Source: a virus (lineage: Duplodnaviria; Caudoviricetes). Taken from it: 58,786 bases of DNA. Both the position numbers and the translations under genes were made by a program. Below are positions 27,590 to 57,337 of this stretch, piece after piece. Location: positions 1-58,786 of IMG/VR virus record IMGVR_UViG_3300036846_001130. One strand, given 5' to 3'. The notes under the pieces were generated by a model that worked only from the letters and a program-made list of their open reading frames with translations, searched no databases and was not told where the DNA came from. The first letter of the stretch is position 1. The number at the start of each line of letters is the position of its first letter.

Positions 27590-28381
27590 ATGAAAACCTT
27601 ACGCGAAAGTTTAGGCAAGCCTGTGCTGTTCCATTGGGTCGGCTGGGCAGGCAAGAACGGCGAGACCGCAGATCAGACGCTGGAGGGCTATATCTCAACC
27701 GACCCCGACGTGATCGCCCGTCAGTTGCAATGCATGCGCGCATTCGGCGGCGAGGGCGCGGGCGTAATCGGCCTCACCTACGGGCCGACCGCGTCGCCCT
27801 TCATGCACGAAGCCTCGCGCAGAATGGGCATGGCGTGCAACGCCACCGGGATGCCCTTCGCGCTTTGCTACGACCCATGGACCACGAAGAATACCGCCGA
27901 CAAGTCGCAGGCCATGATCGACGCGCTGAAGAATCCCGACACGCAGGAACTGCTCAACATGGATTGCTACCTGCCGGGCAAGCCTGTGCTCGACTTCAAC
28001 ACGGGCGCGAACAAGGACAAGGTGCTCGCTGCCGTGCCCGGCATCCAGTACTGGCAAAAGGACGTTGACTACGACTGGAACCTGATTCCGCCCAAGCCCA
28101 ACAAGACGCAGTTGCCGTGCGGCTACATTCAGTTCGACGACGGCACCGGAGAGGATCGAAACAAGCAGTGCTGGAATCAGTCGCAGCCCGTGCGCCTCGT
28201 CGCCTCGAAGGGCGGGCAGATGTTCTGGGGCCGCGACATGAGTGCGGGCACCTACATCCAGATCGTGACGTGGAATGACTACCATGAGCAGACCGCAGTC
28301 GAGCCGTGGGCCTCGCTCGCGACTGGAATCCGAATCGGGAAGGAAATCATTTTTCAAAGGAAACCATTTTTCAATGAGTAA
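27590..28381 (+). CDS. GH99/GH71-like glycoside hydrolase
   Basis: YISTDPDVIARQLQCMR...IQIVTWNDYHEQTAVEP. Confidence 0.65.
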   Translation: MKTLRESLGKPVLFHWVGWAGKNGETADQTLEGYISTDPDVIARQLQCMRAFGGEGAGVIGLTYGPTASPFMHEASRRMGMACNATGMPFALCYDPWTTKNTADKSQAMIDALKNPDTQELLNMDCYLPGKPVLDFNTGANKDKVLAAVPGIQYWQKDVDYDWNLIPPKPNKTQLPCGYIQFDDGTGEDRNKQCWNQSQPVRLVASKGGQMFWGRDMSAGTYIQIVTWNDYHEQTAVEPWASLATGIRIGKEIIFQRKPFFNE

Positions 28382-36720: not shown

Positions 36721-36945
36721 ATGCCAGTTCAAACGGTAAACACCTACGCCTTCTGCGTGAAGCGCCTCTCGGGGATCAGCAGCTCCGGCGTGCAGAACGG
36801 GCAATACGAAGGCGAGCAAGTCTACGTCGTCGCCACTTCGCTGGCGAATGCGCAGGCCACGCTGGCCGCAAACTACGGCTCCGATCTCGGCCCGGTAACC
36901 GGAGGAGCCGCGAAGACTCCGGGGGCCATCACCCAGTTGGCGTGA
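36721..36945 (+). CDS. Small protein, paralog 1 of 3
   Basis: MPVQTVNTY...YGSDL; GGAGG RBS. Confidence 0.75.
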   Translation: MPVQTVNTYAFCVKRLSGISSSGVQNGQYEGEQVYVVATSLANAQATLAANYGSDLGPVTGGAAKTPGAITQLA

Positions 36946-36955
36946 GGAGGGACAA

Positions 36956-37225
36956 ATGGCAGTTCAAACGACGAACGTTTACCGCTGTACGGCTGTGCTC
37001 AAATCGGCGAGCCAGACGGGCGCTCACGCCGCCGAGATAGTGGTGTGCGCGCAGAATGCAGCTGGGGCGCAGGCCGTGGTGGCCGCCGTCTTCGGCAGTG
37101 ATCTCAACTTCATACGCGGCCCGGTGCTAGCCATGCAGGGCGTGTACACCACCATGACCGGAAGCTTGCTGGATGCGCCGCTTGACCATCAGCGCGGCGA
37201 GCATGTGGCGCACGCCAAAAACTGA
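36956..37225 (+). CDS. Small protein, paralog 2 of 3
   Basis: MAVQTTNVY...FGSDL..IRGPVL...TTMTGSL. Confidence 0.75.
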   Translation: MAVQTTNVYRCTAVLKSASQTGAHAAEIVVCAQNAAGAQAVVAAVFGSDLNFIRGPVLAMQGVYTTMTGSLLDAPLDHQRGEHVAHAKN

Positions 37226-37237
37226 AAAGGGGGAGCC

Positions 37238-37546
37238 ATGGCAGTCCAAATCATGAACGTCTACCGCTCTACCGTCGTCCTGAACTCTCTGATCGATGGG
37301 GGCTACGGCATGGCCGGAATCGAAGTCGCGGTGATCGCGGAAAGCCCGGACGCGGTGATGCCAATTCTGCAGGCCCAGTACGGCAGTGACATCGCGAGCG
37401 TCCGTGGTCCGGTGCTGGTCGTCGAGGGAGCTTTGACCACCATGACCGGGTCACTGCGGAAGGCACCAGCGGCACCAGCTCCGCCGCCTGCCGATGAAGA
37501 AGAGAGCGAGCATCATCCGGCCAAGCACGCCGCGAAAAAAAACTGA
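37238..37546 (+). CDS. Small protein, paralog 3 of 3
   Basis: MAVQIMNVY...YGSDI..VRGPVL...TTMTGSL. Confidence 0.75.
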   Translation: MAVQIMNVYRSTVVLNSLIDGGYGMAGIEVAVIAESPDAVMPILQAQYGSDIASVRGPVLVVEGALTTMTGSLRKAPAAPAPPPADEEESEHHPAKHAAKKN

Positions 37547-37599: not shown

Positions 37600-38034
37600 A
37601 TGGGTGCAGGCAATCCGGAAAATCTGACCAGCAAGGGCAAGCGCTGGGAAAAAGGCCAGTCGGGCAATCCTTCCGGCAGGCCCACGCGCATGTTCACGCT
37701 GGTCACCATGGCGCTGCGCGAGAAGCTGGCTGCGGTCGATCCCAAGACCAAGAAGACCTACGCGCAGCGCATTGCCGACCTGCTGCTCAACTGCGCCATC
37801 GATCCCGATCCCGAGCTGGACAAGACGCGCATCATGGCGCTGTCGGAGATCATCGACCGCTGCGAAGGCAAGCCCAAGCAGCAGCTCGATGTCAACGACG
37901 TTACCGCTGAGCTGCGCGCCCGCTCCGATGAAGACCTGATGTTCAAGCTGGAGCACGGCTACTGGCCGGAGGACGCCTCCATGGAGAAACGCAACCGCAG
38001 GATTCTGGAAGCAGGCAAAGAAATTACGCAGTGA
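37600..38034 (+). CDS. Terminase small subunit candidate (DUF5681-like)
   Basis: WEKGQSGNPSGRP; EIIDRCEGKPKQ; directly upstream of TerL ATPase. Confidence 0.75.
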   Translation: MGAGNPENLTSKGKRWEKGQSGNPSGRPTRMFTLVTMALREKLAAVDPKTKKTYAQRIADLLLNCAIDPDPELDKTRIMALSEIIDRCEGKPKQQLDVNDVTAELRARSDEDLMFKLEHGYWPEDASMEKRNRRILEAGKEITQ

Positions 38035-38720
38035 GTGATACCGCACTTTCGCTCGGCAACCGCGAGCGCGTCATCACCGACATCCTGATCAAGCAGGAAC
38101 TGGAACGCAGGCGGATATGGACACTGTGTGCCCAAAAAGTCGCGAGCTTCGAGGCCGGGCCGATGCTCTGGTTGACCAAGCACACGGCCACCGAGGATTT
38201 GCACTGGCTGCAAAAGGGCACGCCTCCGGTCGCGCCTTTTCCGGCGAAGCCCTATCTGCTGGTGGCGATGAGCTACCTGCTCACCAACGACACGATTTTC
38301 ATTCCCAAGTCGCGGGAGATGATGACGTCGTGGCTGGTGTGCGGCTACATCTCTTGGATGTGCCAGTGGCTGCCGCACATCTTCTGGATTCTGCAGACCG
38401 AGAAGGAAGACAAGGCCACGCAGCTGATCGACTACTGCCGCATTCTCTACAACCGCCAGCCCGACTGGATGAAGGAACGCAATCCGCTGGTGGTCTCGAA
38501 CTCGGTCGAGATCACGCGGGCCAACGGCTCGCACGTGCTCGCGGTTCCGCAGGGAGAGAACCAAGTTCGTTTGTTTCACCCTTACGGCTACATGCAGGAC
38601 GAAAGCGCCTTCCTGCCTGAAGCCGAGCAATCGTTCAACGCGGTGCGCCCGGTCTGCAAGCAAATCGTGGCGGTCTCTTCGGATGAAATCGGCTGGTTCC
38701 ACAACGAGTGCAAGCGCTGA
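38031..38720 (+). CDS. terL: Terminase large subunit, N-terminal ATPase part
   Basis: Walker A-like IPKSREMMTSW, Walker B YMQDESAF, coupling motif VAVSS, then GWF. Confidence 0.85.
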   Translation: MSDTALSLGNRERVITDILIKQELERRRIWTLCAQKVASFEAGPMLWLTKHTATEDLHWLQKGTPPVAPFPAKPYLLVAMSYLLTNDTIFIPKSREMMTSWLVCGYISWMCQWLPHIFWILQTEKEDKATQLIDYCRILYNRQPDWMKERNPLVVSNSVEITRANGSHVLAVPQGENQVRLFHPYGYMQDESAFLPEAEQSFNAVRPVCKQIVAVSSDEIGWFHNECKR

Positions 38721-39079
38721 TGCTGACTTCTGGGGGTTACACCATCAGGCCGGACGGTTCGCTGGTGATCTCGACCACGCTGCAAGCGGGAGCGAGTAAG
38801 ACCACCAGAGGTTTGATTTTCAATCCAGATGGTTCGCTGTTCACGGCCACCCTTACCATGCCGACCGGGAGCTATGTCAGTTCCGAGGGATGGCGCTATG
38901 ACCCGAACGGCGCACTGGTGACCAACGTGACCAAGAAAGCCGGAGCATTTCTAAATTCTGACGGCTTCACTCTTAATCCGAATGGTGCTGTCTTGATTTC
39001 GGGAACTAAGCAGGCGGGCGCAGTCACCACCAGCCGCCAGCTCACCTTCAACCCGGATGGTTCTCTGTTCGCATACTAG
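38720..39079 (+). CDS. Protein of five ~25-aa NPDGSL repeats
   Basis: RPDGSL, NPDGSL, DPNGAL, NPNGAV, NPDGSL; TGATG coupling. Confidence 0.7.
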   Translation: MLTSGGYTIRPDGSLVISTTLQAGASKTTRGLIFNPDGSLFTATLTMPTGSYVSSEGWRYDPNGALVTNVTKKAGAFLNSDGFTLNPNGAVLISGTKQAGAVTTSRQLTFNPDGSLFAY

Positions 39080-39255: not shown

Positions 39256-39486
39256 ATGGCAATCCTGTCAGAGGCCGCCAAGAGAGCGGTGCCGAAATCG
39301 GAGCGCGGCGTGCCCGGCAAATCCGGCACAGGCAGCTATCCCATGCCCAATGCCCGGCATGCTGCAGCCGCTGTGGGCTTCGCCGCGATGCATCACGGTG
39401 CAGCCTTCGCTTCCAAGATTCGCGCCAAAGCCCGCAGGCTGGGATTCGCGGGCGGCAAAAAGAAATCGGCGTTTTACGGAGAGTGA
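39256..39486 (+). CDS. Small basic protein (DUF6582-like) ending SAFYGE
   Basis: SYPMPNARHAAAA...KIRAKARRLG. Confidence 0.75.
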   Translation: MAILSEAAKRAVPKSERGVPGKSGTGSYPMPNARHAAAAVGFAAMHHGAAFASKIRAKARRLGFAGGKKKSAFYGE

Positions 39487-39489
39487 AAC

Positions 39490-40122
39490 ATGTTCGGCGA
39501 TCCCGATCAGCGCGACCACATGCTGGCAGGTATCAAGCGGGCCTATAACTCGCCGAAGACACCGGAACACTTGCGCCCGCATCTCGGGCGACGACTACAA
39601 GGAGGCACCATGGCATTCCCACCTCGCAAAACGATTGTTGGTCCGCTCGGACGCTCGCCGATTGTGACGCGCACCTCGCGTACCGCGACCACGCCGATCA
39701 AAACTTTGGTCGGCTCGACTGTGCGCCCTCCGGTGAAAACACAGGTGGGCAATCTGGCTGCGCCTCGACCGAAAACACTGGTCGGCAATCTGGCAGCTCC
39801 GCCTCCGAAGACCACACCCGCGAATCTGGGCAAGGGCGGGACCAAGCCGCTGGGCATGCCTGCGGCAGATCGCGGCGCGATCCAGACCACGAACCCGATC
39901 TCCAGCTCGCGTAGCTTCGGCATGAGCGACGGTAATCCCGGTCGCAGCGTGTCCCCGATGCCGAAGCCTGCCGGAGGTCCGGTCAATCCCACTTTCGACT
40001 TCAAGCGCGCTCTGAATGACACCTCGATTCAGGACGGCGGCATGGGACCGACTGCCAAGCGCATGGGGCGCGCTCCGAGTCGCGGGTCGCGCACCCGGCG
40101 CAGCGCATTCTTCGGCGAATGA
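39490..40122 (+). CDS. Basic Pro-rich repeat protein ending SAFFGE
   Basis: KT.VGNLAAP repeats; possible second start at 39610 (GGAGG RBS). Confidence 0.7.
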   Translation: MFGDPDQRDHMLAGIKRAYNSPKTPEHLRPHLGRRLQGGTMAFPPRKTIVGPLGRSPIVTRTSRTATTPIKTLVGSTVRPPVKTQVGNLAAPRPKTLVGNLAAPPPKTTPANLGKGGTKPLGMPAADRGAIQTTNPISSSRSFGMSDGNPGRSVSPMPKPAGGPVNPTFDFKRALNDTSIQDGGMGPTAKRMGRAPSRGSRTRRSAFFGE

Positions 40123-40125
40123 GCC

Positions 40126-40335
40126 ATGGCAAGAGTCTCGGCTGCGTCCGTCGACTACATGGAATTGCAGGGGGCACGCAAGGATGCCGACTGCGATCAC
40201 GTCGTGGTGAAGGGCGGAGTCAGTTCGCGGCTGGGTTGCTGCAATGACTTCCGCCCTGATCCCGGCACGCAGGCCTTCAAGTGTGGAACCTGTCAGCACC
40301 TCGTCCGCATCCACGATCCTCTGTACGCGCGGTGA
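40126..40335 (+). CDS. Small Cys-rich protein
   Basis: DCDHV..GGVS..LGCCNDF...CGTC. Confidence 0.65.
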   Translation: MARVSAASVDYMELQGARKDADCDHVVVKGGVSSRLGCCNDFRPDPGTQAFKCGTCQHLVRIHDPLYAR

Positions 40336-40338
40336 ACC

Positions 40339-40527
40339 ATGCCCACTGAACATTTCAAATCGCAAGAGGCCTATCGCAAGTGGACGGCCTACCGCCACAT
40401 TCACGGCATCCCGGCCCCGAATCTGAAGACTGCCATCGTGGCAGGGAAGCCGCACAAGGTGAAGCACAGCGAGCTGTCGCTGCCTGCGATGCGGGAAAAG
40501 AAGCGCGAAGCTTTTTATGGCGAATGA
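40339..40527 (+). CDS. Small basic protein ending EAFYGE
   Basis: FKSQEAYRKWTAYRHIHG; overlaps start of TerL-C. Confidence 0.7.
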   Translation: MPTEHFKSQEAYRKWTAYRHIHGIPAPNLKTAIVAGKPHKVKHSELSLPAMREKKREAFYGE

Positions 40528-41566
40528 CAACGTAGAGCATCCCCACATCGGGATGTCTTCGTGGAAAAACCATCACGGGATCACCATCCTGCGGCTGCAC
40601 TACAGTGCCGATCCGGACAAAGGCGAAGGCGAGACCACCTACGTCAAGGAAATCAACAAGCATCTCTCGCCGTGGGCGCTGACCGCTTACGGGCGCATGA
40701 CCGATCCCACGCTGTACCTGAAAGAGTACGAGATCGATGCCGAGGCCACGCTGGGCGCGAAGCTGTTCCAGTTCACCGAGGAGGTCACAGTCGAGCCAGT
40801 GCGCGAGATTCCGCCCGAGTGGACGCGGCGCATGTCGGTCGATCCGCATCCCGGCATCCCGCACGCCCACCTTTGGGCCGCTACCGATCCATGGGGAGAT
40901 CGCTGGTACTACCGCGAAGTGTGGCCTTCGAAGGTTTGCTACGAGTGGAGGAACGGCATTCTCTACGGCAAGCCCGGCCCCTGCCCGCAGGATGAGCGCG
41001 GGCCGAACATCCTTGAGTACGCACAGACCATCAAGTACCTCGAATCCGCCGAGAACCCGGAGAATCGGCAGGGCAAGGAAGCGTTCGAGGAGGAAATTTT
41101 CGCGCGCGTGATCGACTACGCGGCGCGCGCCTTCGGCAAGGGCACCAACGACGACCCTGAGCAGGAAAACTATCAGCAGCGCTACGAGAAGCACCTCAGT
41201 GATCTCGAAGTAAGCCGTCCCTACTTCGATGACGCCAAGAAAGATCGACAGGTCGGCGTCGAGGTAGTGAATGAGGGCCTGAAGATCATCGAGCGCATGG
41301 GCAACGATGGCGAGTATCACAAGACCAGCCGCATTCACATTCTCGGCGAGCGCTGCCCTGAGCTGATCCACCAGCTGAAAAGCAATCGCCGCCAGCTGCT
41401 TTCGCCGCTACAGATCGAGCGGCAGGACCCCACAGGCAAGCCCGTGAAGGTTCGCAACCACATGACCGACAACCTGCGTTACATCGAGATGGCCAATCCC
41501 ATCTACGTGGCGAAGGAAGTTTTTTACGACTCTTTCCAGCCTGTTGCTCGCGGATTTTCTTACTAG
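40517..41566 (+). CDS. terL: Terminase large subunit, C-terminal lid plus RNase-H-like nuclease part
   Basis: LRLHYSADPDK, KEYEID, MSVDPH, NHMTDNLRY; precedes portal. Confidence 0.85.
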   Translation: MANDNVEHPHIGMSSWKNHHGITILRLHYSADPDKGEGETTYVKEINKHLSPWALTAYGRMTDPTLYLKEYEIDAEATLGAKLFQFTEEVTVEPVREIPPEWTRRMSVDPHPGIPHAHLWAATDPWGDRWYYREVWPSKVCYEWRNGILYGKPGPCPQDERGPNILEYAQTIKYLESAENPENRQGKEAFEEEIFARVIDYAARAFGKGTNDDPEQENYQQRYEKHLSDLEVSRPYFDDAKKDRQVGVEVVNEGLKIIERMGNDGEYHKTSRIHILGERCPELIHQLKSNRRQLLSPLQIERQDPTGKPVKVRNHMTDNLRYIEMANPIYVAKEVFYDSFQPVARGFSY

Positions 41567-41568
41567 CC

Positions 41569-44289
41569 ATGGCAGCCCGCCAGAGACCCATTCTTGAGAA
41601 CGAGCACCGACTCGTCACCGACATCATTGAGCGGCGCAACGAGAGCCGCAAGTGGATGCGGAAGAACATGCACGACGAGATGACCGAGGTATGGCGCGCC
41701 ATCAAGTGCAAGACCGCGCCGATTTTCAAGAAGGACCGGGCAGGCGTCGACACACAGGCGGAAGACAAATCGCGCACCAACGTGGCGATGCCCGACCTGA
41801 ACATCATCTATCGCCGCAACGCGGCGCGCATGACCGCCGCGCCCTATCGCCTGCGCTACACCGGAGGCGATCCCCTGACCGCCGAGATGCTTTCCAGCCT
41901 CGCCATGCAGCAGTACGCGCGCTCCGATGAGCCGTTCCACGATGTGCGCTGCGTGCTGGCCTCGGAGGCCTTCGGCTGGGGCTACACCAAACTTTACTGG
42001 GACAAGCTGGTGCGCACGATGACCTTCCGCAAGGCCATCATGAAGGGCAATGACGTCGTCTACCGTGACCGGGGTTCGATCATGCGCTCGCAGGGCGCGA
42101 ACGACAACGAGATCGAGGAAGCCATCGGCGCGATGGGGCCGGAGATGGACGACACCGAGATCGCGCGCTTCATGGCGAAAAGCGGCACGGAGGTGCAGGT
42201 GCCGCAGGAGACCACCCAGTATGAAGGCCCGCTCGTAAAGTGGATTTTCAATGGCGACCTGTACATCGAGCCGAATGCGCCCACGCTGGAGCGGTCGAGC
42301 TACTGCATCGAGCAGTTCACCGAGAACGATTTCTGGCTGGAAAAAATGTCGCGGCTTACCTACGAGGACCCCGACAGTGGCGAGGAAGTCTCCGCCTTCG
42401 ATCCCGAAGCGCTGCAGGAACTGATCGACACCGGAGGCGATACCGAGACCAAAGATCAGGAGCCGGGTGACGATCTGCGCGACATGTTCAACGCCGCCAT
42501 CGGGCGGGAGCGCGAGCAGGAGTATTACCTGCCGAAGAATCTGCGCCCGCGCAAAAAGTTCAACATCATCGAGCAACACTCACAGGATCGCGACGATGGC
42601 AGGTTCTACATTTCGTGGTGCTCGGAGAAGTGGCGTGACCGACTGCTGGGCCGTATGCCCTACCAGTTCGATCTCTACGGCAAATATCAGTACACCGACA
42701 TGTGCCCGCTGCCCGACCTGATCCTCAGCTACGGCGATTCCACGCCCCGCCTGCTGCGTCACATTTACATGATGCACAACCTGACGGTCGCGCAGAATTT
42801 CGATTACGTGACCAACCTGCTGAAGCCTTTCCTGCTCCGCCGTATGGGCGTGAACATCGAGCCAGAAGTGGTGGTGCGCGGACTCTTCCGTGAGCTGCAG
42901 GTCGCCGACCTGAACGGCGTGAAGCTGCTGCAGGAACCGCCGCTGCCTGCGGGCGCATTCGAACGCGAGGCCCAGCTGATGCGCATGATGGCGCTGGCTG
43001 AGCCATCGCTCACCTCGACCGAGAGTGGCACGGGAGCCAACCCGCAGGCGGGCAAGACGGCGACCACCGCGCTGCTGGCTTCGAAGTCTGCCGACGCTCT
43101 TACGCAATTCAAGCTGGACGGGCGCAATCGCTACCTGCGCGAACTGGGCCTCAAGAAGCTGTGGATGAATCAGCAGGGCCGCGAGCAGAACCAGCGCTGG
43201 ACGGTGGAGGCGCGCTACTGGGGAGAAGGCCTGCGCAAACGGGTCGAGGCCATCGAAGGCCCGCCGCCCGACTGGGCAATGACCGAGCGCTATGGCGGCA
43301 AGGTCTCGGCGATCAAGCTCGATCCGATGGACATTCAGGAAGATTTCGAAGTCGAGCCGGAGGCAGGTTCCTATCTGGCCGTCGACGACGAGATGCGCCA
43401 GCAGGCGGCGCAGAATCTCACGCAGGTCGCGATGGGCAATCCCGACATCATCGACCGCCGCAAGGTGATCCGCTTTCAGATGTCGACCATTCGCGGCATC
43501 GGCAACCCTGACGATTATTTCCTGCCCGAGATGCAAGGGCCGCCACCGCCACCGCCGCCGAAGATCAACGTGAACATTCAGGTGCCGATGGACAAGATGC
43601 CGAGCGACGTGGTGAATCAGCTGCTGCCGGAAATCGGCCTGCAGCCTTCGCAGATGCTGGAACACAAAGACGCGATGAGCGCGGTGACGCAGGCAGGCGA
43701 GGCTTCCGAAGCTGCCGACTCGATGATGAGTCCCGGCGAGAGCGAGCAGCAGGAACATGAGATGGGGGCCGAGCATGCCATGCAGGTCTCCGATCAGGCG
43801 CACGAAGCTGGGCTGCAGAGCGATCAGCAGGACCACGACATGCTCATGAAGGTGCATCAGGCCGCGCACGAACGCACCCAGCAGGATCGCGAGCACCGCA
43901 ACGCTCTCGATCAGAATGCGCAGCAGCACGTGCACTCCGTGGTACAGGCCGAGCAGCAGCACAGGCACGCGCTCACGCAAGGAGTGCAGCAGCAGGCGGG
44001 ACAAGCCGCGCAGAAAGGCGCAGAGATCGCCTCGAAGGAGCGCCAGCAAGGTGCCGGGCTGAAGTCGCAGGAACGCATCGCCAGCCAGCGCAACAAGCCC
44101 AATGGAAAACCCAACGGCAAACCGAAGGCTGCGGGCGGTGGCGAGAAGCAAACGCAGCCGCCGATGGTGCTGCACCTGAAGATCGATCACGGCACTGAAG
44201 GCGCTCCCAAGCGCACCAAGAAAACCGTGAAGCTGATTCGCGGCGAGGACGGCGTGACCACAGGCGCGGAGATCAACGAGGAAGAGTGA
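41569..44289 (+). CDS. Portal protein (P22/podovirus-like) with long C-terminal coiled coil
   Basis: 906 aa after terminase; GWGYTKLYW, KTATTA; Gln/His-rich tail. Confidence 0.85.
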   Translation: MAARQRPILENEHRLVTDIIERRNESRKWMRKNMHDEMTEVWRAIKCKTAPIFKKDRAGVDTQAEDKSRTNVAMPDLNIIYRRNAARMTAAPYRLRYTGGDPLTAEMLSSLAMQQYARSDEPFHDVRCVLASEAFGWGYTKLYWDKLVRTMTFRKAIMKGNDVVYRDRGSIMRSQGANDNEIEEAIGAMGPEMDDTEIARFMAKSGTEVQVPQETTQYEGPLVKWIFNGDLYIEPNAPTLERSSYCIEQFTENDFWLEKMSRLTYEDPDSGEEVSAFDPEALQELIDTGGDTETKDQEPGDDLRDMFNAAIGREREQEYYLPKNLRPRKKFNIIEQHSQDRDDGRFYISWCSEKWRDRLLGRMPYQFDLYGKYQYTDMCPLPDLILSYGDSTPRLLRHIYMMHNLTVAQNFDYVTNLLKPFLLRRMGVNIEPEVVVRGLFRELQVADLNGVKLLQEPPLPAGAFEREAQLMRMMALAEPSLTSTESGTGANPQAGKTATTALLASKSADALTQFKLDGRNRYLRELGLKKLWMNQQGREQNQRWTVEARYWGEGLRKRVEAIEGPPPDWAMTERYGGKVSAIKLDPMDIQEDFEVEPEAGSYLAVDDEMRQQAAQNLTQVAMGNPDIIDRRKVIRFQMSTIRGIGNPDDYFLPEMQGPPPPPPPKINVNIQVPMDKMPSDVVNQLLPEIGLQPSQMLEHKDAMSAVTQAGEASEAADSMMSPGESEQQEHEMGAEHAMQVSDQAHEAGLQSDQQDHDMLMKVHQAAHERTQQDREHRNALDQNAQQHVHSVVQAEQQHRHALTQGVQQQAGQAAQKGAEIASKERQQGAGLKSQERIASQRNKPNGKPNGKPKAAGGGEKQTQPPMVLHLKIDHGTEGAPKRTKKTVKLIRGEDGVTTGAEINEEE

Positions 44290-47059: not shown

Positions 47060-48403
47060 ATGGCCGACGAATCAACGGCTGCGGTGAGCCAACCACCGGA
47101 GACCGAAGAATCGCAACAAGGGACGCCGAGTACTGATTACTCATCGTTCCTAGGACCGCCATCTGCTGAAGTCGATCTCTCTGCGGAAGAACGTCCCGCA
47201 CCCGGCGCAGAGCAACAGGCTGAAGGCGAGCCGGAACTTTCCGGCGAGCCAGAGCAAGAGGGCGAGCCACAAGAAGAACAGGAAGCGGAAGCGGAAGCCG
47301 CACCCGAAGTCGAAGCTGAGGCAGAGGCTGAACAGCCACCCTCCGTGGAGGAACGCCTTAAAGACCTCACTCAGCGCGAATCTGATGAGTACGCGCAACG
47401 CTATCCCAGTGCGTGGAAGGCACTGCAGGACCCGAAGACGCCCGAGGACCTGAAGCACCTTCTGCTCGACAAGATCGACGGCGATCACGAAATTCAACGG
47501 CGCATCGCCCAAGAACAGGCACTCGCGGAAGAGGAAGGGGAGCCAACCCCCGAGTACGAAGCCGAAGTGCCGCAAACCGCTGCTGCTACGCCGGAAGCTA
47601 TCGCTGAGCAGCGCACCGCGTACTACAGCCAGATTGACAATCTGGTGAAGACGCAATTCGATCCGCAATCTGTCAAAGAAGTCGGAGACAGTCTGCTGCG
47701 CATGTTCAATGTGAACGTGAAGGCGCTGCAGGACCCGAACGTTTCGCCGGAAGACAAGGCGGTACTGCAGGGGCTTGTCAGCAGTGTGCAGCGTGAGGCT
47801 CCGGTCCTCGCCCGCTTCATGGCGGATGCTGTGGCCACCGTCGTCCCTCATGTGGTGAGACCTGCCATCGAAGCAGCGATGCCGGGCTTCACCGAGATGT
47901 ATGAGCGGCAGATGTATGGCAACGCATACGAGAACGTTCGCGCTCAGACCGATGAGCGTGGCCGCCCACTGTATCCGGGCCTGCCCGCGTATCCCATGGT
48001 CGCAGGAACTCCGGAGGCGCAAGCCTTCGCGGACAAAATGCGAGCCGCTGCGCAAGAGGTACCGGGCTTTGACGAGATGACGTTCCGCGACAAGGCGGGC
48101 AGGCTTCTGCCCGACCAGCAGCAGGCGCAGATCAAGTACACGATTCTGCTCCGGCACATGGCGGGACAGCGGGTGAATCCGGCAGTAGTGGCACAAGCCG
48201 TTGAAACAGGGCGCAGGCTCGCCGGGCGCGCGGATAATCGCCGCGCCGCCGCGCGAGTAGCGGGAGCGGGACAAAGAACAGCTGGCCCTCCGGGCCGAGG
48301 CGGAGCCGAAGACGAAGACCCGATGTTGGCTGCACTCGATGCCGAGATTTCCCGGCAGGAAGTGAACTACAGGCAGCCCGTTCGGGGTCGTAGCGGACGC
48401 TGA
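47060..48403 (+). CDS. Capsid scaffolding protein
   Basis: Very acidic E/P/A-rich N-terminus; immediately upstream of capsid gene; AGGAGGAG RBS. Confidence 0.75.
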   Translation: MADESTAAVSQPPETEESQQGTPSTDYSSFLGPPSAEVDLSAEERPAPGAEQQAEGEPELSGEPEQEGEPQEEQEAEAEAAPEVEAEAEAEQPPSVEERLKDLTQRESDEYAQRYPSAWKALQDPKTPEDLKHLLLDKIDGDHEIQRRIAQEQALAEEEGEPTPEYEAEVPQTAAATPEAIAEQRTAYYSQIDNLVKTQFDPQSVKEVGDSLLRMFNVNVKALQDPNVSPEDKAVLQGLVSSVQREAPVLARFMADAVATVVPHVVRPAIEAAMPGFTEMYERQMYGNAYENVRAQTDERGRPLYPGLPAYPMVAGTPEAQAFADKMRAAAQEVPGFDEMTFRDKAGRLLPDQQQAQIKYTILLRHMAGQRVNPAVVAQAVETGRRLAGRADNRRAAARVAGAGQRTAGPPGRGGAEDEDPMLAALDAEISRQEVNYRQPVRGRSGR

Positions 48404-48436: not shown

Positions 48437-49639
48437 GTGGCTGTTCGAGGCATTTCGACCTTTAACTCCTTCGTGACCGAAACGTCGAACGTGCGCGACG
48501 TGTCGACTCGCTTGCTCAACCTTGAGCCTGACCGCACACCGCTCTATGTCCTGACCAACAACTCGAAGCGCAAGGTGAGTGTGTTCGCACCGCGCATTGA
48601 GTTCTTTGAAGATGCCGATCTGGTGATGCTGGGCGCATCGAACGGCACCGTTTTCTTCAGCAACGCTTCCTCGACCGTGGGCGTGGCCGATGTCACCATC
48701 TTTGGCATTGGCGATGTCGTCGCGGTCCAGAAAGTGGCGGAGAGCACCGCGACCGTCGAGGAATTGATTCAGGTCATCGGTCTCTCGCAAGGTGCCGGGA
48801 CGGCGGGAACCCTCACCGTCACGCGCGGCTTTGCCCTGACCACCATCGACACCATCAGCCAGACTGCGACGCTCAAGATTCTGGGCGTGGCGCAGTCAGA
48901 AGTCGGAGCCATCCAGAATCCGCGCACACCCGTGAAGTCTCCCAAGACCAGCGGCGCGCAGATTTTTGAGTGGCCGATGCAAATCTCGCGCACGGCGGCG
49001 GCTACCAAGATTTACGGTGACCGTCCGGAACGCGCTCGCATTCAGTGGCTGGGAATGCGGCGCACCAAGCTGGAGATCGAGAACGCTGGCTTGTTTGGCA
49101 GCTACTCGGAGACCTTGAACGGCACCGCATCGATGTACACCTCGATGGGCGTGCGCTCGATCATCTCCAGCTTCTTGAGTGATGCCGGAGGCACGACCAC
49201 TCCGACCACCCTGAAGGTCTTCCTCGACTGGTCGCGTATGGCGTTCCGTTATGGTTCGCCGGAAAAACTGCTGATGGCCGCGCCGCTGGTGAAAGAGGGC
49301 CTCGACTATTGGGCGGCAGGCAAGCAGTTTGTGCGCGCGGAGGATAAAGTCTTCGGCGTCTCGCTGAAGCGCTTCGTCACTTCGAACGGCAACTGGCTGA
49401 TCGCCAACAACTACAACATGGACGGAGGCGTCGCCGATGAGGCGATTGGCATTGACCTGCCTTCGGTCGAGTACTGCCCGCTGGTGAACAACGGACAGAA
49501 CCTCGACACTCGCCTCTATCCCGACTACGACCCCACCAATCCGAAACTGCTGAAGGATTTGATCCTGACGCAGGCGGGCTGGCGTGTCTGGCATCAGGCG
49601 CGTCACGCACGCATTTACGATTTTCAGGCCTTCGCCTGA
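48437..49639 (+). CDS. Major capsid protein (SU10/DUF5309-like)
   Basis: RDVSTRLLNLEPDRTPL, QIFEWPMQISRT, KLEIENAGLFG, FGVSLKRF; followed by terminator. Confidence 0.85.
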   Translation: MAVRGISTFNSFVTETSNVRDVSTRLLNLEPDRTPLYVLTNNSKRKVSVFAPRIEFFEDADLVMLGASNGTVFFSNASSTVGVADVTIFGIGDVVAVQKVAESTATVEELIQVIGLSQGAGTAGTLTVTRGFALTTIDTISQTATLKILGVAQSEVGAIQNPRTPVKSPKTSGAQIFEWPMQISRTAAATKIYGDRPERARIQWLGMRRTKLEIENAGLFGSYSETLNGTASMYTSMGVRSIISSFLSDAGGTTTPTTLKVFLDWSRMAFRYGSPEKLLMAAPLVKEGLDYWAAGKQFVRAEDKVFGVSLKRFVTSNGNWLIANNYNMDGGVADEAIGIDLPSVEYCPLVNNGQNLDTRLYPDYDPTNPKLLKDLILTQAGWRVWHQARHARIYDFQAFA

Positions 49640-57109: not shown

Positions 57110-57337
57110 ATGGGAGCAGGCCTTAGCAAGATGGGAAATAATTTCCTGAGTAATTTCCAGACCCCGCAAGGGACTACTCCGGGTTCAGTGCTGGGTGGTA
57201 TCGGCGACATGGCGGACATCGCAGGGATAGGTGGGCAGAAACTGGGGCAGCAGCAGCAGCCCGCGCAGCCCGTCAATTTCAATCCGCCTCCGCAGGCCTT
57301 CATCGCGCCGCCTAAAAATCCGTTTTACGGAGGTTGA
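57110..57337 (+). CDS. Small G/Q-rich internal protein candidate ending KNPFYGG
   Basis: AAGGAG RBS. Confidence 0.6.
   Translation: MGAGLSKMGNNFLSNFQTPQGTTPGSVLGGIGDMADIAGIGGQKLGQQQQPAQPVNFNPPPQAFIAPPKNPFYGG

What the first reader, a model, noticed from the sequence alone, without database searches (positions are those of the whole stretch)
39256..40527. Shared C-terminal AF[Y/F]GE tag on three otherwise unrelated basic proteins inside the terminase gap
Seen: the proteins end KKKSAFYGE* (39486), RRSAFFGE* (40122) and KKREAFYGE* (40527). Codons differ at synonymous sites (gcg ttt tac gga gag; gca ttc ttc ggc gaa; gct ttt tat ggc gaa), which points to peptide-level conservation rather than a DNA repeat. 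The internal-protein-region ORF 57110-57337 ends with a similar KNPFYGG*. Inference: a C-terminal targeting peptide that loads basic cargo proteins into the procapsid, or docks them on portal or terminase, analogous to the T4 capsid targeting sequence or encapsulin cargo-loading peptides. A degron is an alternative. I know of no described phage signal with this sequence.
Basis: partly seen in the sequence, partly recalled or inferred. Interest (0 to 1): 0.85.

Follow-up and report, generated by a model that had tools for sequence, protein, structure and literature searches.

The report
Shared C-terminal address tag on phage proteins
Several unrelated small proteins of this uncultivated soil phage end in the same five residues, and related phages use other endings that change together on all their tagged proteins, which points to a docking tag for one common partner, probably in the phage head.

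Summary
Three ORFs (39256-39486, 39490-40122, 40339-40527) end in AF[YF]GE. A distant ORF (57131-57337) ends in PFYGG, and the untagged neighbour C ends in a decayed PLYAR.

Chance expectation is 0.0012 such ends among 103 genes. The motif is kept in 25 of 25 homologue clusters of B, while codons match no more often than codon usage predicts (60 of 130 against 67.2 expected).

Homologues of protein A in other phages carry other tails, such as KLSDLA, RLTRLMGR, KLSSLRRA and GPVxEDD. Unrelated neighbours in the same genome carry the same tail: 19 of 26 genomes, 0 of 20000 permutations.

Cargo is swappable. Two unrelated families fill slot D, and one phage tags a histidine phosphatase. Tail class follows the portal and scaffold (r about 0.75) far more than TerL (0.38) or the cargo's own core (0.24).

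Best reading: a lineage-specific C-terminal docking peptide for a head-module receptor, probably for virion loading. Neither the receptor nor encapsidation is shown.

The parts
39256..39486 (+). Protein A, 76 aa. Two-helix core, then a flexible basic linker and the tag AFYGE (codons 39469-39483).
   Evidence: 160 homologues. AlphaFold2 gives helices 33-46 and 49-62, with block-mean pLDDT of 68 for residues 61-70 and 47 for 71-76. DUF6582 appears only as a lead, on 11% of members of one neighbouring Atlas cluster. Weak phrog_16160 hit, E 4e-4.
39490..40122 (+). Protein B, 210 aa. Low-complexity, Arg/Pro-rich, with repeated KTxVG motifs. Tag AFFGE (codons 40105-40119).
   Evidence: 25 of 25 homologue clusters at 49-100% identity end in x-F-[YF]-G-[EG], while the 15 residues before it vary.
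40126..40335 (+). Protein C, 69 aa by the longest-ORF start (58 aa from the 40159 start that my gene caller picks), Cys-rich. Decayed tag DPLYAR here.
   Evidence: The homologue in L006/G005 ends in DPLYGE.
40339..40527 (+). Protein D, 62 aa. Tag AFYGE (codons 40510-40524). Its last 11 bases overlap the start of the downstream terminase half.
   Evidence: The same slot holds this family in L001 and L006, and an unrelated DUF3008-like family in L002, L004, L005 and L008. All are tagged.
57131..57337 (+). Gly/Gln/Pro-rich 68-aa protein in the tail and putative ejection-protein region. Tag variant PFYGG (codons 57320-57334).
   Evidence: Homologues in G001 (..MNPFYGG) and G005 (..GPGFYGG) keep FYGG while the flanks differ. 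FYGG/FFGG is the tag on all three tagged proteins of L005.
38031..38720 (+). N-terminal half of a split large terminase (context).
   Evidence: phrog_5989 terminase large subunit, E 7e-5. My reading of Walker A-like and Walker B-like stretches is by eye in the sequence.
40517..41566 (+). C-terminal half of the split large terminase (context).
   Evidence: phrog_10250 terminase large subunit, E 0.0023. It follows the tagged genes in all 7 distinct lineage-1 loci.
41569..44289 (+). Probable portal protein, 906 aa. Candidate receptor.
   Evidence: No Pfam, PHROG or PDB sequence hit. Atlas feature neighbours include an SU10_portal cluster (87% of members, score 0.94). Placed by synteny between terminase and capsid genes.
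47060..48403 (+). Scaffold-like protein, 447 aa, 18% D+E with a very acidic N-terminal third. Candidate receptor.
   Evidence: Composition and position directly upstream of the capsid gene. 34 homologues (the window's own protein among them), all of this lineage. No family hit.
48437..49639 (+). Major capsid protein. Candidate receptor.
   Evidence: Pfam SU10_MCP 3.8e-22. phrog_1328 major head protein 6e-9.

Best explanation
x-F-[YF]-G-[E/G]-COOH is a short linear docking motif. It sits at the end of a flexible, usually basic linker on a set of otherwise unrelated accessory proteins of this phage. All tagged proteins are recognised through it by one common partner.

That partner is most likely phage-encoded and belongs to the head-morphogenesis module (portal, scaffold or capsid protein). 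The tag would then recruit the proteins to the assembling head, probably so that they are packaged and later ejected.

Related phages use the same principle with other tags, and tag and receptor change together.

Shown: the motif, its peptide-level conservation, co-variation among co-resident proteins, portability between cargo families, and association with portal/scaffold type.

Inferred: binding to a single receptor, the identity of that receptor, and encapsidation.
For: (1) Non-random and conserved. 0.0012 such ends are expected and 3 are seen. B homologues are tagged in 25 of 25 clusters. FYGG is kept in 3 of 3 genomes for the distant gene.

(2) Selection acts on the peptide. In lineage 1, identical residues use identical codons in 60 of 130 cases against 67.2 expected from codon usage. 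In lineage 2 the figure is 39 of 84, with Ser coded AGC in one gene and TCC in the other in several pairs.

(3) Co-variation. Among 26 non-redundant genomes holding both family E and family A, 19 have concordant tails. Examples are ..RKLSDLA with ..KKLSDLA..VRLTRLMGR with ..VRMTKLMGR..KLSSLRRA with ..KLSSLRYAG, and ..SVERLKA with ..SVAELKA. The same-genome tail score is 16.1 against 9.1 across genomes, and 0 of 20000 permutations reach it.

(4) Portability. Slot D holds two unrelated families, both tagged. L069 tags a His_Phos_1 enzyme (3.7e-29), and L025 tags a DUF3008 protein. A cores that are 80-87% identical carry different tails.

(5) The tag lies in a low-confidence, non-helical tail.

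(6) Among 30 genomes, tail similarity correlates with portal distance (r 0.76, 0 of 5000 Mantel permutations) and, in 23 genomes, with scaffold distance (0.71). It correlates only 0.38 with TerL and 0.24 with E's own core. The partial correlation is 0.71 for portal given TerL, and 0.05 for TerL given portal.

(7) Precedent. T7 gp6.7, a small protein, binds the portal barrel through short loops and is ejected (PMC11784390, passages read).
Against: - No binding, virion or expression data exist, and the phage group has no cultured member: A and E give no hit in 50,697 GenBank phage records.
- 7 of 26 genomes with both E and A have no shared tail, so the device is not universal.
- The portal association rests largely on one clade. 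12 of the 30 genomes carry KLSDLA with closely related portals. Within that clade r is 0.08, and among the other 18 it is 0.47.
- Portal and scaffold distances cannot be separated (r 0.95). No portal segment stands out in a sliding window.
- In lineage 2 the third ejection-region protein has a tag-like end in only 2 of 4 genomes, and weakly.
- 14 of 25 lineage-1 tags contain GGAG, which may also serve the next gene's ribosome-binding site, so part of the G-E end is under double constraint.
Confidence: 0.45

Rival explanations
1. The tails dock on a host protein. This could be a C-terminal degron for a host protease, or a handle for a chaperone or another host hub, so that the proteins are timed or recruited in the cell rather than loaded into virions.
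For: The motif sits at the extreme C-terminus after a disordered linker. The KLSDLA class ends in a small non-polar pair, which resembles ssrA-type ends (recalled, not tested). T7 gp6.7 and gp7.3 are degraded by cellular proteases after ejection (PMC11784390).
Against: There are many tag classes among phages whose A cores are 70-87% identical. Tail class follows portal/scaffold type much more than TerL; a host factor should correlate with all phage modules alike. FYGE, LMGR and GPVxEDD ends are chemically unlike each other and unlike known non-polar degrons (the latter recalled).
Confidence: 0.15
2. The tails bind each other or the terminase. Either identical short tails zip the small proteins into one hetero-oligomer, or they dock on TerL or TerS and modulate packaging.
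For: Co-resident tails are near-identical, which self-association would also produce. The genes lie inside the split TerL gene here and directly after TerL in the other lineage. In some genomes the DUF5681 (TerS-like) protein ends in ..KRVSDLR or ..TLKDLK, which resembles the local tag.
Against: Five or six residues are short for a stable homotypic contact (inference). The partial correlation of tail with TerL, given portal, is 0.05. The TerS-like ending is a variant of a family-wide helix (AMEKAxxRV..). It does not follow the tag in L009, L012, L015, L028 or L109.
Confidence: 0.15
3. The shared end is a by-product of gene organisation. It could come from ribosome-binding sites or start codons of tightly coupled downstream genes, or from gene conversion between neighbouring 3' ends.
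For: All tagged genes in the window are followed within 3 nt, or overlapped, by the next start. 14 of 25 lineage-1 tags contain GGAG in the last two sense codons.
Against: 11 of 25 tags lack GGAG, and the F-[YF] pair is not explained by it. There is no excess of identical codons. Lineage-2 tags are not SD-like. C is coupled in the same way but has lost the tag. B homologues are tagged in 25 of 25 clusters despite varied flanks.
Confidence: 0.03
4. The G-E or G-G end is a handle for covalent modification or ligation, Pup-like or ubiquitin-like, or a protease recognition site.
For: Small disordered proteins ending in Gly-Glu or Gly-Gly resemble Pup-type ends (recalled).
Against: Other lineages use ends with no Gly-Glu (KLSDLA, LMGR, ARAK) on the same protein families. 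No ligase was seen among the late genes that I scanned. The early genes were not scanned.
Confidence: 0.05

Closest known systems
T4 capsid targeting sequence (internal proteins IPI-III) and the P1 DarB packaging signal
   Same: A short peptide shared by, or sufficient for, several unrelated cargo proteins directs them into the assembling head. The cargo is later injected. (PMC9024508, passages read, which cites Mullaney and Black 1996.)
   Different: Those signals are N-terminal, and in T4 the signal is removed by the prohead protease (recalled). Here the signal is at the extreme C-terminus, no prohead protease was identified, and loading is not shown.
Encapsulin cargo-loading peptides
   Same: A short conserved C-terminal peptide after a flexible linker, found on different cargo encoded next to an HK97-fold shell gene. 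(Search listing only: PMC7355545 and PMC11190991. Details recalled.)
   Different: The consensus sequence is different (recalled). Here the compartment would be a DNA-filled phage head, there are many lineage-specific tag classes, and the receptor is unknown.
HK97 prohead protease C-terminal targeting tail
   Same: A C-terminal tail that carries a protein into the procapsid. (Duda et al. 2013; only the title was seen, in the reference list of PMC9024508. The paper is not held. Content recalled.)
   Different: That is a single cargo, the protease itself. Here there are three to five unrelated small proteins per phage and no protease.
T7 gp6.7 and gp7.3 small ejected virion proteins
   Same: Small proteins that bind the portal barrel or the adaptor-nozzle junction through short segments and are ejected (PMC11784390). 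Their genes lie just upstream of the portal gene (recalled).
   Different: T7 has no shared terminal motif. Contact is by internal loops. No sequence relation was tested or seen.

Membership tests
T4-type capsid targeting sequence | N-terminal position of the signal | tested here: not met
   The shared motif is the last five residues before the stop codon in every case.
T4-type capsid targeting sequence | The signal is sufficient to load foreign proteins into heads | not testable with these tools
   Needs reporter fusions and procapsid or virion purification.
Encapsulin-type cargo-loading peptide | Short conserved terminal peptide after a flexible linker, shared by different cargo of one locus | tested here: met
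   The tag is shared by A, B, D and the distant protein. The linker has low confidence and no helix. Cargo families are unrelated.
Encapsulin-type cargo-loading peptide | The peptide binds the inner face of the HK97-fold shell protein | not testable with these tools
   Needs binding assays or a structure. Sequence statistics only tie the tag to the head module as a whole.
T7 gp6.7-like portal-bound small ejected protein | Small protein encoded next to the portal gene | tested here: met
   The tagged genes lie 0-2.3 kb upstream of the probable portal gene here. In lineage 2 they lie between TerL and a P22_portal gene (1e-121).
T7 gp6.7-like portal-bound small ejected protein | Presence in the virion on the portal barrel, and ejection | not testable with these tools
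   No cultured relative exists.
ssrA-like C-terminal degron | Non-polar C-terminal residues recognised by a host protease (feature recalled) | tested here: not met
   The window's tags end in Gly-Glu or Gly-Gly. Only the KLSDLA class of other phages ends non-polar. Recognition itself is not testable.
Pup/ubiquitin-like ligation handle | C-terminal Gly-Gly/Glu together with a cognate ligase | tested here: inconclusive
   G-E and G-G ends are present. No ligase family was found among the 29 window late-region and genome-end proteins scanned against Pfam, PHROGs or both. Apart from one protein (27590-28378), the early and middle genes were not scanned. Other lineages use ends without Gly.

The most novel reading that the evidence does not exclude
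These phages have a modular, exchangeable C-terminal 'address code'. A 5-8 residue tail that co-evolves with the portal and head module loads whatever protein carries it into the virion for delivery to the next host. The cargo includes small DNA-associated proteins, disordered proteins and even enzymes such as a histidine phosphatase. Genes moving between phages acquire the local tail. This would be a natural, programmable multi-cargo protein-delivery signal in tailed phages, the C-terminal counterpart of the T4 CTS and a viral relative of encapsulin loading peptides.
Probability: 0.35. Interest if true: 0.85.

Novelty: new variant of a known kind. Interest (0 to 1): 0.72.

Why it matters
If the tag is a virion-loading or portal-docking signal, three things follow:
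- It gives a rule for reading dozens of 'hypothetical' small genes between terminase and portal in uncultivated soil phages.
- It shows how accessory and injected proteins can be swapped between phages by changing a few terminal residues.
- It offers a short peptide for loading chosen proteins into phage capsids.

It also provides a clean natural data set on co-evolution between a short linear motif and its receptor. There are about eight tail variants on the same two protein families, though several of them grade into one K-L-S-x-L theme.

Searches for 'cargo loading peptide' with bacteriophage, for short linear motif, phage, portal and small proteins, for capsid targeting terms, and for DUF6582/DUF3008 (0 papers) found no description of such a shared C-terminal tag. 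These searches cover only the held library.

Tried and rejected
**Co-fold.** One job with capsid protein (alignment A5, 119 rows), scaffold-like protein (A4, 32 rows) and protein A (A3, 32 rows) as the scored partner. Result: no verdict, score 0.23 against a mark of 0.32, controls not run. This is evidence neither for nor against binding. Portal and terminase could not be tried because the cap is one job.

**Fold of A.** AlphaFold2 gave mean pLDDT 70.8 and a two-helix core. Foldseek against BFVD gave 0 matches at E up to 0.001. The hit to an 'uncultured phage prohead protease' at E 1.8 is only a lead.

**Cultured relatives.** tblastn of A and of an E-family protein against GenBank phages gave no match.

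**PDB sequence searches.** The probable portal and the scaffold-like protein gave only chance-level matches (best E 0.18 and 0.7), and the 405-aa protein gave no match.

**Portal identity.** A profile comparison of lineage-1 portals (5 sequences) with P22-type portals (55 sequences) gave probability 37% over 57 columns, which is inconclusive. The portal assignment in the window rests on synteny and Atlas neighbours.

**Locating a receptor site.** A sliding window over the portal alignment gave r between 0.45 and 0.78 throughout, with no peak.

**TerS-like proteins as tagged proteins.** Rejected. The similar ending is a variant of a family-wide helix and does not follow the tag in most genomes.

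**Tag on lineage-2 ejection-region proteins.** Only 2 of 4 genomes show a weak resemblance. Not used as support.

**Window gene 27590-28381 (ends KPFFNE).** Its L008 homologue stops 13 residues earlier and the L005 copy is cut by the locus end, so it is left open.

**A first co-variation count was too strict.** My regular expressions for A and E found only 7 genomes. It was replaced by profile searches on six-frame ORFs.

**Rows dropped before the counts:**
- duplicate records of the same contig: L053, L054, L055, L058, L061, L062, L071, L088, L108, L116;
- near-identical loci: L003, L007, L013, L014, L068, L076, L103, L104, L105;
- L032, whose A gene is truncated.

**Gene calls.** They are from my own codon-log-odds caller, not a standard program. 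Two tagged ORFs of L008 seen in the raw ORF list were not picked by it.
Full report
**1. What is there**

The window is one whole virus record of 58,786 bp with 61% G+C. Its late region carries an SU10-type capsid gene (Pfam SU10_MCP 3.8e-22) and a weak SU10_adaptor match, so it is a short-tailed phage of an uncultivated group.

Two weak large-terminase matches lie at 38031-38720 (phrog_5989, 7e-5) and 40517-41566 (phrog_10250, 0.0023). Six small + strand ORFs sit between them.

- A, 39256-39486
- B, 39490-40122
- D, 40339-40527

In all 2583 six-frame ORFs, F[YF]GE occurs four times, and three of those are these ends. From the composition of 103 called genes, 0.0012 such ends are expected, and the binomial P for 3 or more is 3e-10. 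Without their last six residues the proteins show no similarity to each other (no pair with E below 0.08).

**2. Conservation in homologues**

*Protein A.* It has 160 homologues at E up to 0.01 in the 5.8-billion-protein collection, all metagenomic. One cluster is named from an Acidobacteria MAG.

The 27 closest clusters keep x-F-[YF]-G-[E/D/G] at the end, apart from P0019, where one residue follows the motif. Among the 120 listed clusters, 38 are FYGE-like (counting up to three residues after the motif).

*Protein B.* It has 25 homologue clusters at 49-100% identity, and 25 of 25 end in the motif. The Arg-rich 15 residues before it vary freely.

*Related viral contigs (L001-L008, L014; 7 distinct).* The same gene block lies between the same two terminase halves. 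Each contig has three to five tagged ORFs:
- L001-L004 add a fourth family (X).
- L006 has a C homologue ending in DPLYGE. The window's C ends in DPLYAR, so C is a decayed member.
- L005 uses Gly as the last residue on all three of its tags (GFFGG, MFYGG, NFYGG).

Homologues of that gene in G001 and G005 end in MNPFYGG and GPGFYGG, so the end is kept in 3 of 3 genomes while the flanks differ.

**3. The conservation is not at DNA level**

In lineage 1, 130 pairs of identical tag residues within a genome use the same codon 60 times. Codon usage alone predicts 67.2.

14 of 25 tags contain GGAG in the Gly-Glu or Gly-Gly codons, which may double as the next gene's ribosome-binding site. The other 11 use GGC, GGT or GGG-GAA, and the aromatic pair is not explained by this.

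So gene conversion is excluded, and overlap with translation signals explains only a small part of the motif.

**4. The key result: tails co-vary within genomes and differ between lineages**

A homologues keep a nearly invariant core, with 20 invariant columns in alignment A1. The core is followed by tails of several classes:
- x-FYGE
- ..KKLSDLA
- ..LSSLxRAK
- ..KLHxLM
- ..GPVGEDD

In contigs with an unsplit TerL and a P22-type portal (P22_portal 1e-121), A lies near an unrelated 57-69-aa family E (MPxFLExKL..). E carries the same tail as A in that genome:

| Locus | Tail of E | Tail of A |
|---|---|---|
| L009, L011, L015, L020, L028, L030 | KLSDLA-type | KLSDLA-type |
| L016 | VRLTRLMGR | VRMTKLMGR |
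| L018 | MVRLTRLV | MVKLTKLSGY |
| L026 | KLSSLRRA | KLSSLRYAG |
| L023 | SVERLKA | SVAELKA |

L023 has a third ORF ending in SVKELMA. L025 has three ORFs ending in GPVTEHT, GPASEDT and PPVDSNV.

A second scan seeded with family E added 80 loci and further classes: KLSEM[VA], K[LM]K[DE]LA, KMSxxL.., IGxQLME and SFGG.

Profile searches on six-frame ORFs found 31 loci with both E and A, which reduce to 26 after removing duplicates. Of these, 19 have concordant tails. The mean same-genome score is 16.1 against 9.1 between genomes, and 0 of 20000 permutations reach the observed value.

Seven genomes have no shared tail; there A ends right after its core. Codons again differ: 39 of 84 identical residues share a codon, and Ser is AGC in one gene and TCC in the other in several pairs.

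**5. The cargo is interchangeable**

- Slot D holds one family in the window, L001 and L006, and a DUF3008-like family in L002, L004, L005 and L008. All carry the tag.
- In L069 a 198-aa histidine phosphatase (His_Phos_1, 3.7e-29) ends in ..KMNLSALARA, next to an E protein ending in ..KLSQLARAHA.
- In L025 a DUF3008 protein carries the local GPVTEHT tail.

AlphaFold2 on A gives two confident helices (residues 33-46 and 49-62). The tail is non-helical and of lower confidence, with block-mean pLDDT of 68 and then 47. That is the usual setting of a short linear motif.

**6. Which partner?**

For 30 non-redundant genomes holding E, TerL and portal, I compared the similarity of E tails with the divergence of each protein:

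| Compared with | r | Mantel permutations reaching r (of 5000) |
|---|---|---|
| Portal | 0.76 | 0 |
| TerL | 0.38 | 5 |
| E's own core | 0.24 | 26 |

- The partial correlation is 0.71 for portal given TerL, and 0.05 for TerL given portal.
- The bootstrap interval of the difference is 0.22-0.51.
- In 23 genomes that also hold the scaffold-like gene, r is 0.71 for the scaffold. Scaffold and portal distances are themselves correlated at 0.95.

The tag therefore travels with the head-morphogenesis module. It does not travel with the terminase or with the phylogeny of its own cargo.

Caveats:
- 12 of the 30 genomes form one KLSDLA clade with closely related portals (mean distance 0.22 within the clade, 0.72 to the others).
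- Within that clade r is 0.08. Among the other 18 genomes it is 0.47 for portal and 0.19 for TerL.
- No portal segment stands out.

The single co-fold job gave no verdict and is listed under Tried and rejected.

**7. Mechanism proposed**

- Shown: a C-terminal motif on a flexible linker, under peptide-level selection, shared by unrelated co-resident proteins, exchangeable between cargo, and changing in step with the portal/scaffold type.
- Inferred: one phage-encoded receptor in the head module binds the tail. The tagged proteins are brought to the assembling head and are probably packaged.

Three observations fit this:
- The basic stretch before most tags (4-6 K/R in 15 residues for A, B and D) faces a scaffold-like protein with 18% acidic residues and a very acidic N-terminal third.
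- A fourth tagged gene lies in the tail and putative ejection-protein region.
- T7 gp6.7 is a small protein held on the portal barrel by short loops and ejected at infection (PMC11784390).

The rivals are a host hub or degron, self-association or terminase docking, translation-signal by-products, and a ligation handle. Each is weighed in its own section. None explains the portal-linked co-variation as simply, but only experiments can exclude the first.

**8. Comparison with known systems and novelty**

The device works like a capsid targeting or cargo-loading peptide. It is not a member of the T4/P1 class, which is N-terminal (PMC9024508). It also has neither the encapsulin consensus (recalled) nor a protease cargo as in HK97 (recalled).

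Library searches found no description of a shared C-terminal tag on small phage proteins between terminase and portal. I rate it a new variant of a known kind.

The finding is robust as an observation and as an evolutionary pattern. The biochemical mechanism remains untested.

Noticed in passing
window 38031-38720 and 40517-41566: The large terminase is split after the Walker B-like stretch (..HPYGYMQDESAF; a Walker A-like ..IPKSREMMTSW lies earlier). Six genes sit between the halves. The same split and cassette occur in all 7 distinct related loci. Phages of the other lineage have one 490-546-aa TerL, with the tagged genes after it.
   Followed up: partly
L033:4840-6660 (224-kb viral contig): One 606-aa protein joins four elements: a DUF3008-like N-terminus, Gly-rich hydrophobic segments, an A-like domain (GGYPVPDKQHARSALGFAAMHHG) and five [ND]PF motifs. 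These are found as separate tagged proteins here, and the tags KNPFYGG and RNPFFGE also contain NPF.
   Followed up: no
L009:5565-6014 and equivalents in L011, L012, L015, L017, L020, L022, L028, L030, L031, L032: A GroES-like gene (Pfam Cpn10, 2.9e-9) lies between the tagged E and A genes in the KLSDLA lineage. It is absent from that position in L016, L018 and L026, so it is unlikely to be the receptor.
   Followed up: partly
window 27590-28381: A 263-aa protein with a WNDYHE motif ends in ..IIFQRKPFFNE, one residue off the tag. Its homologue in L008 stops 13 residues earlier, so this may be a recently acquired or decaying tag on an enzyme.
   Followed up: partly
window 36721-37546; also L001-L004 inside the terminase gap, and L009:4950-5219: A family of small proteins starting MA[VI]Q[TV]xNVY is present in three tandem copies upstream of the TerS-like gene. 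Further copies lie inside the gap in related phages, and an acidic-tailed relative occurs in the other lineage. No family hit.
   Followed up: no
L017, L032, L057, L059, L102, L112 and L073 (DUF5681, TerS-like genes): The TerS-like protein ends in ..KRVSDLR, or ..TLKDLK in L073, which resembles the local tag. In most other genomes the same helix ends differently, so I read this as coincidence. Mimicry of a TerS tail is not excluded.
   Followed up: partly
TerL C-termini: lineage 2 loci (for example L009:3282-4817); window 40517-41566: Terminase C-termini are also conserved short aromatic ends: ..GDGGWMG, ..SWMA or ..DWMG in lineage 2, and ..ARGFSY in lineage 1. This is a second lineage-specific C-terminal motif, presumably the portal-docking tail.
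   Followed up: no
window 38720-39079: A 119-aa protein in the gap is built of FNPDGSL-type repeats and ends in ..FNPDGSLFAY in the window and three of its four distinct relatives examined (L001, L002/L003; L004 reads ..CNPDGSLFAY). The end is part of its own repeat, not the shared tag.
   Followed up: no
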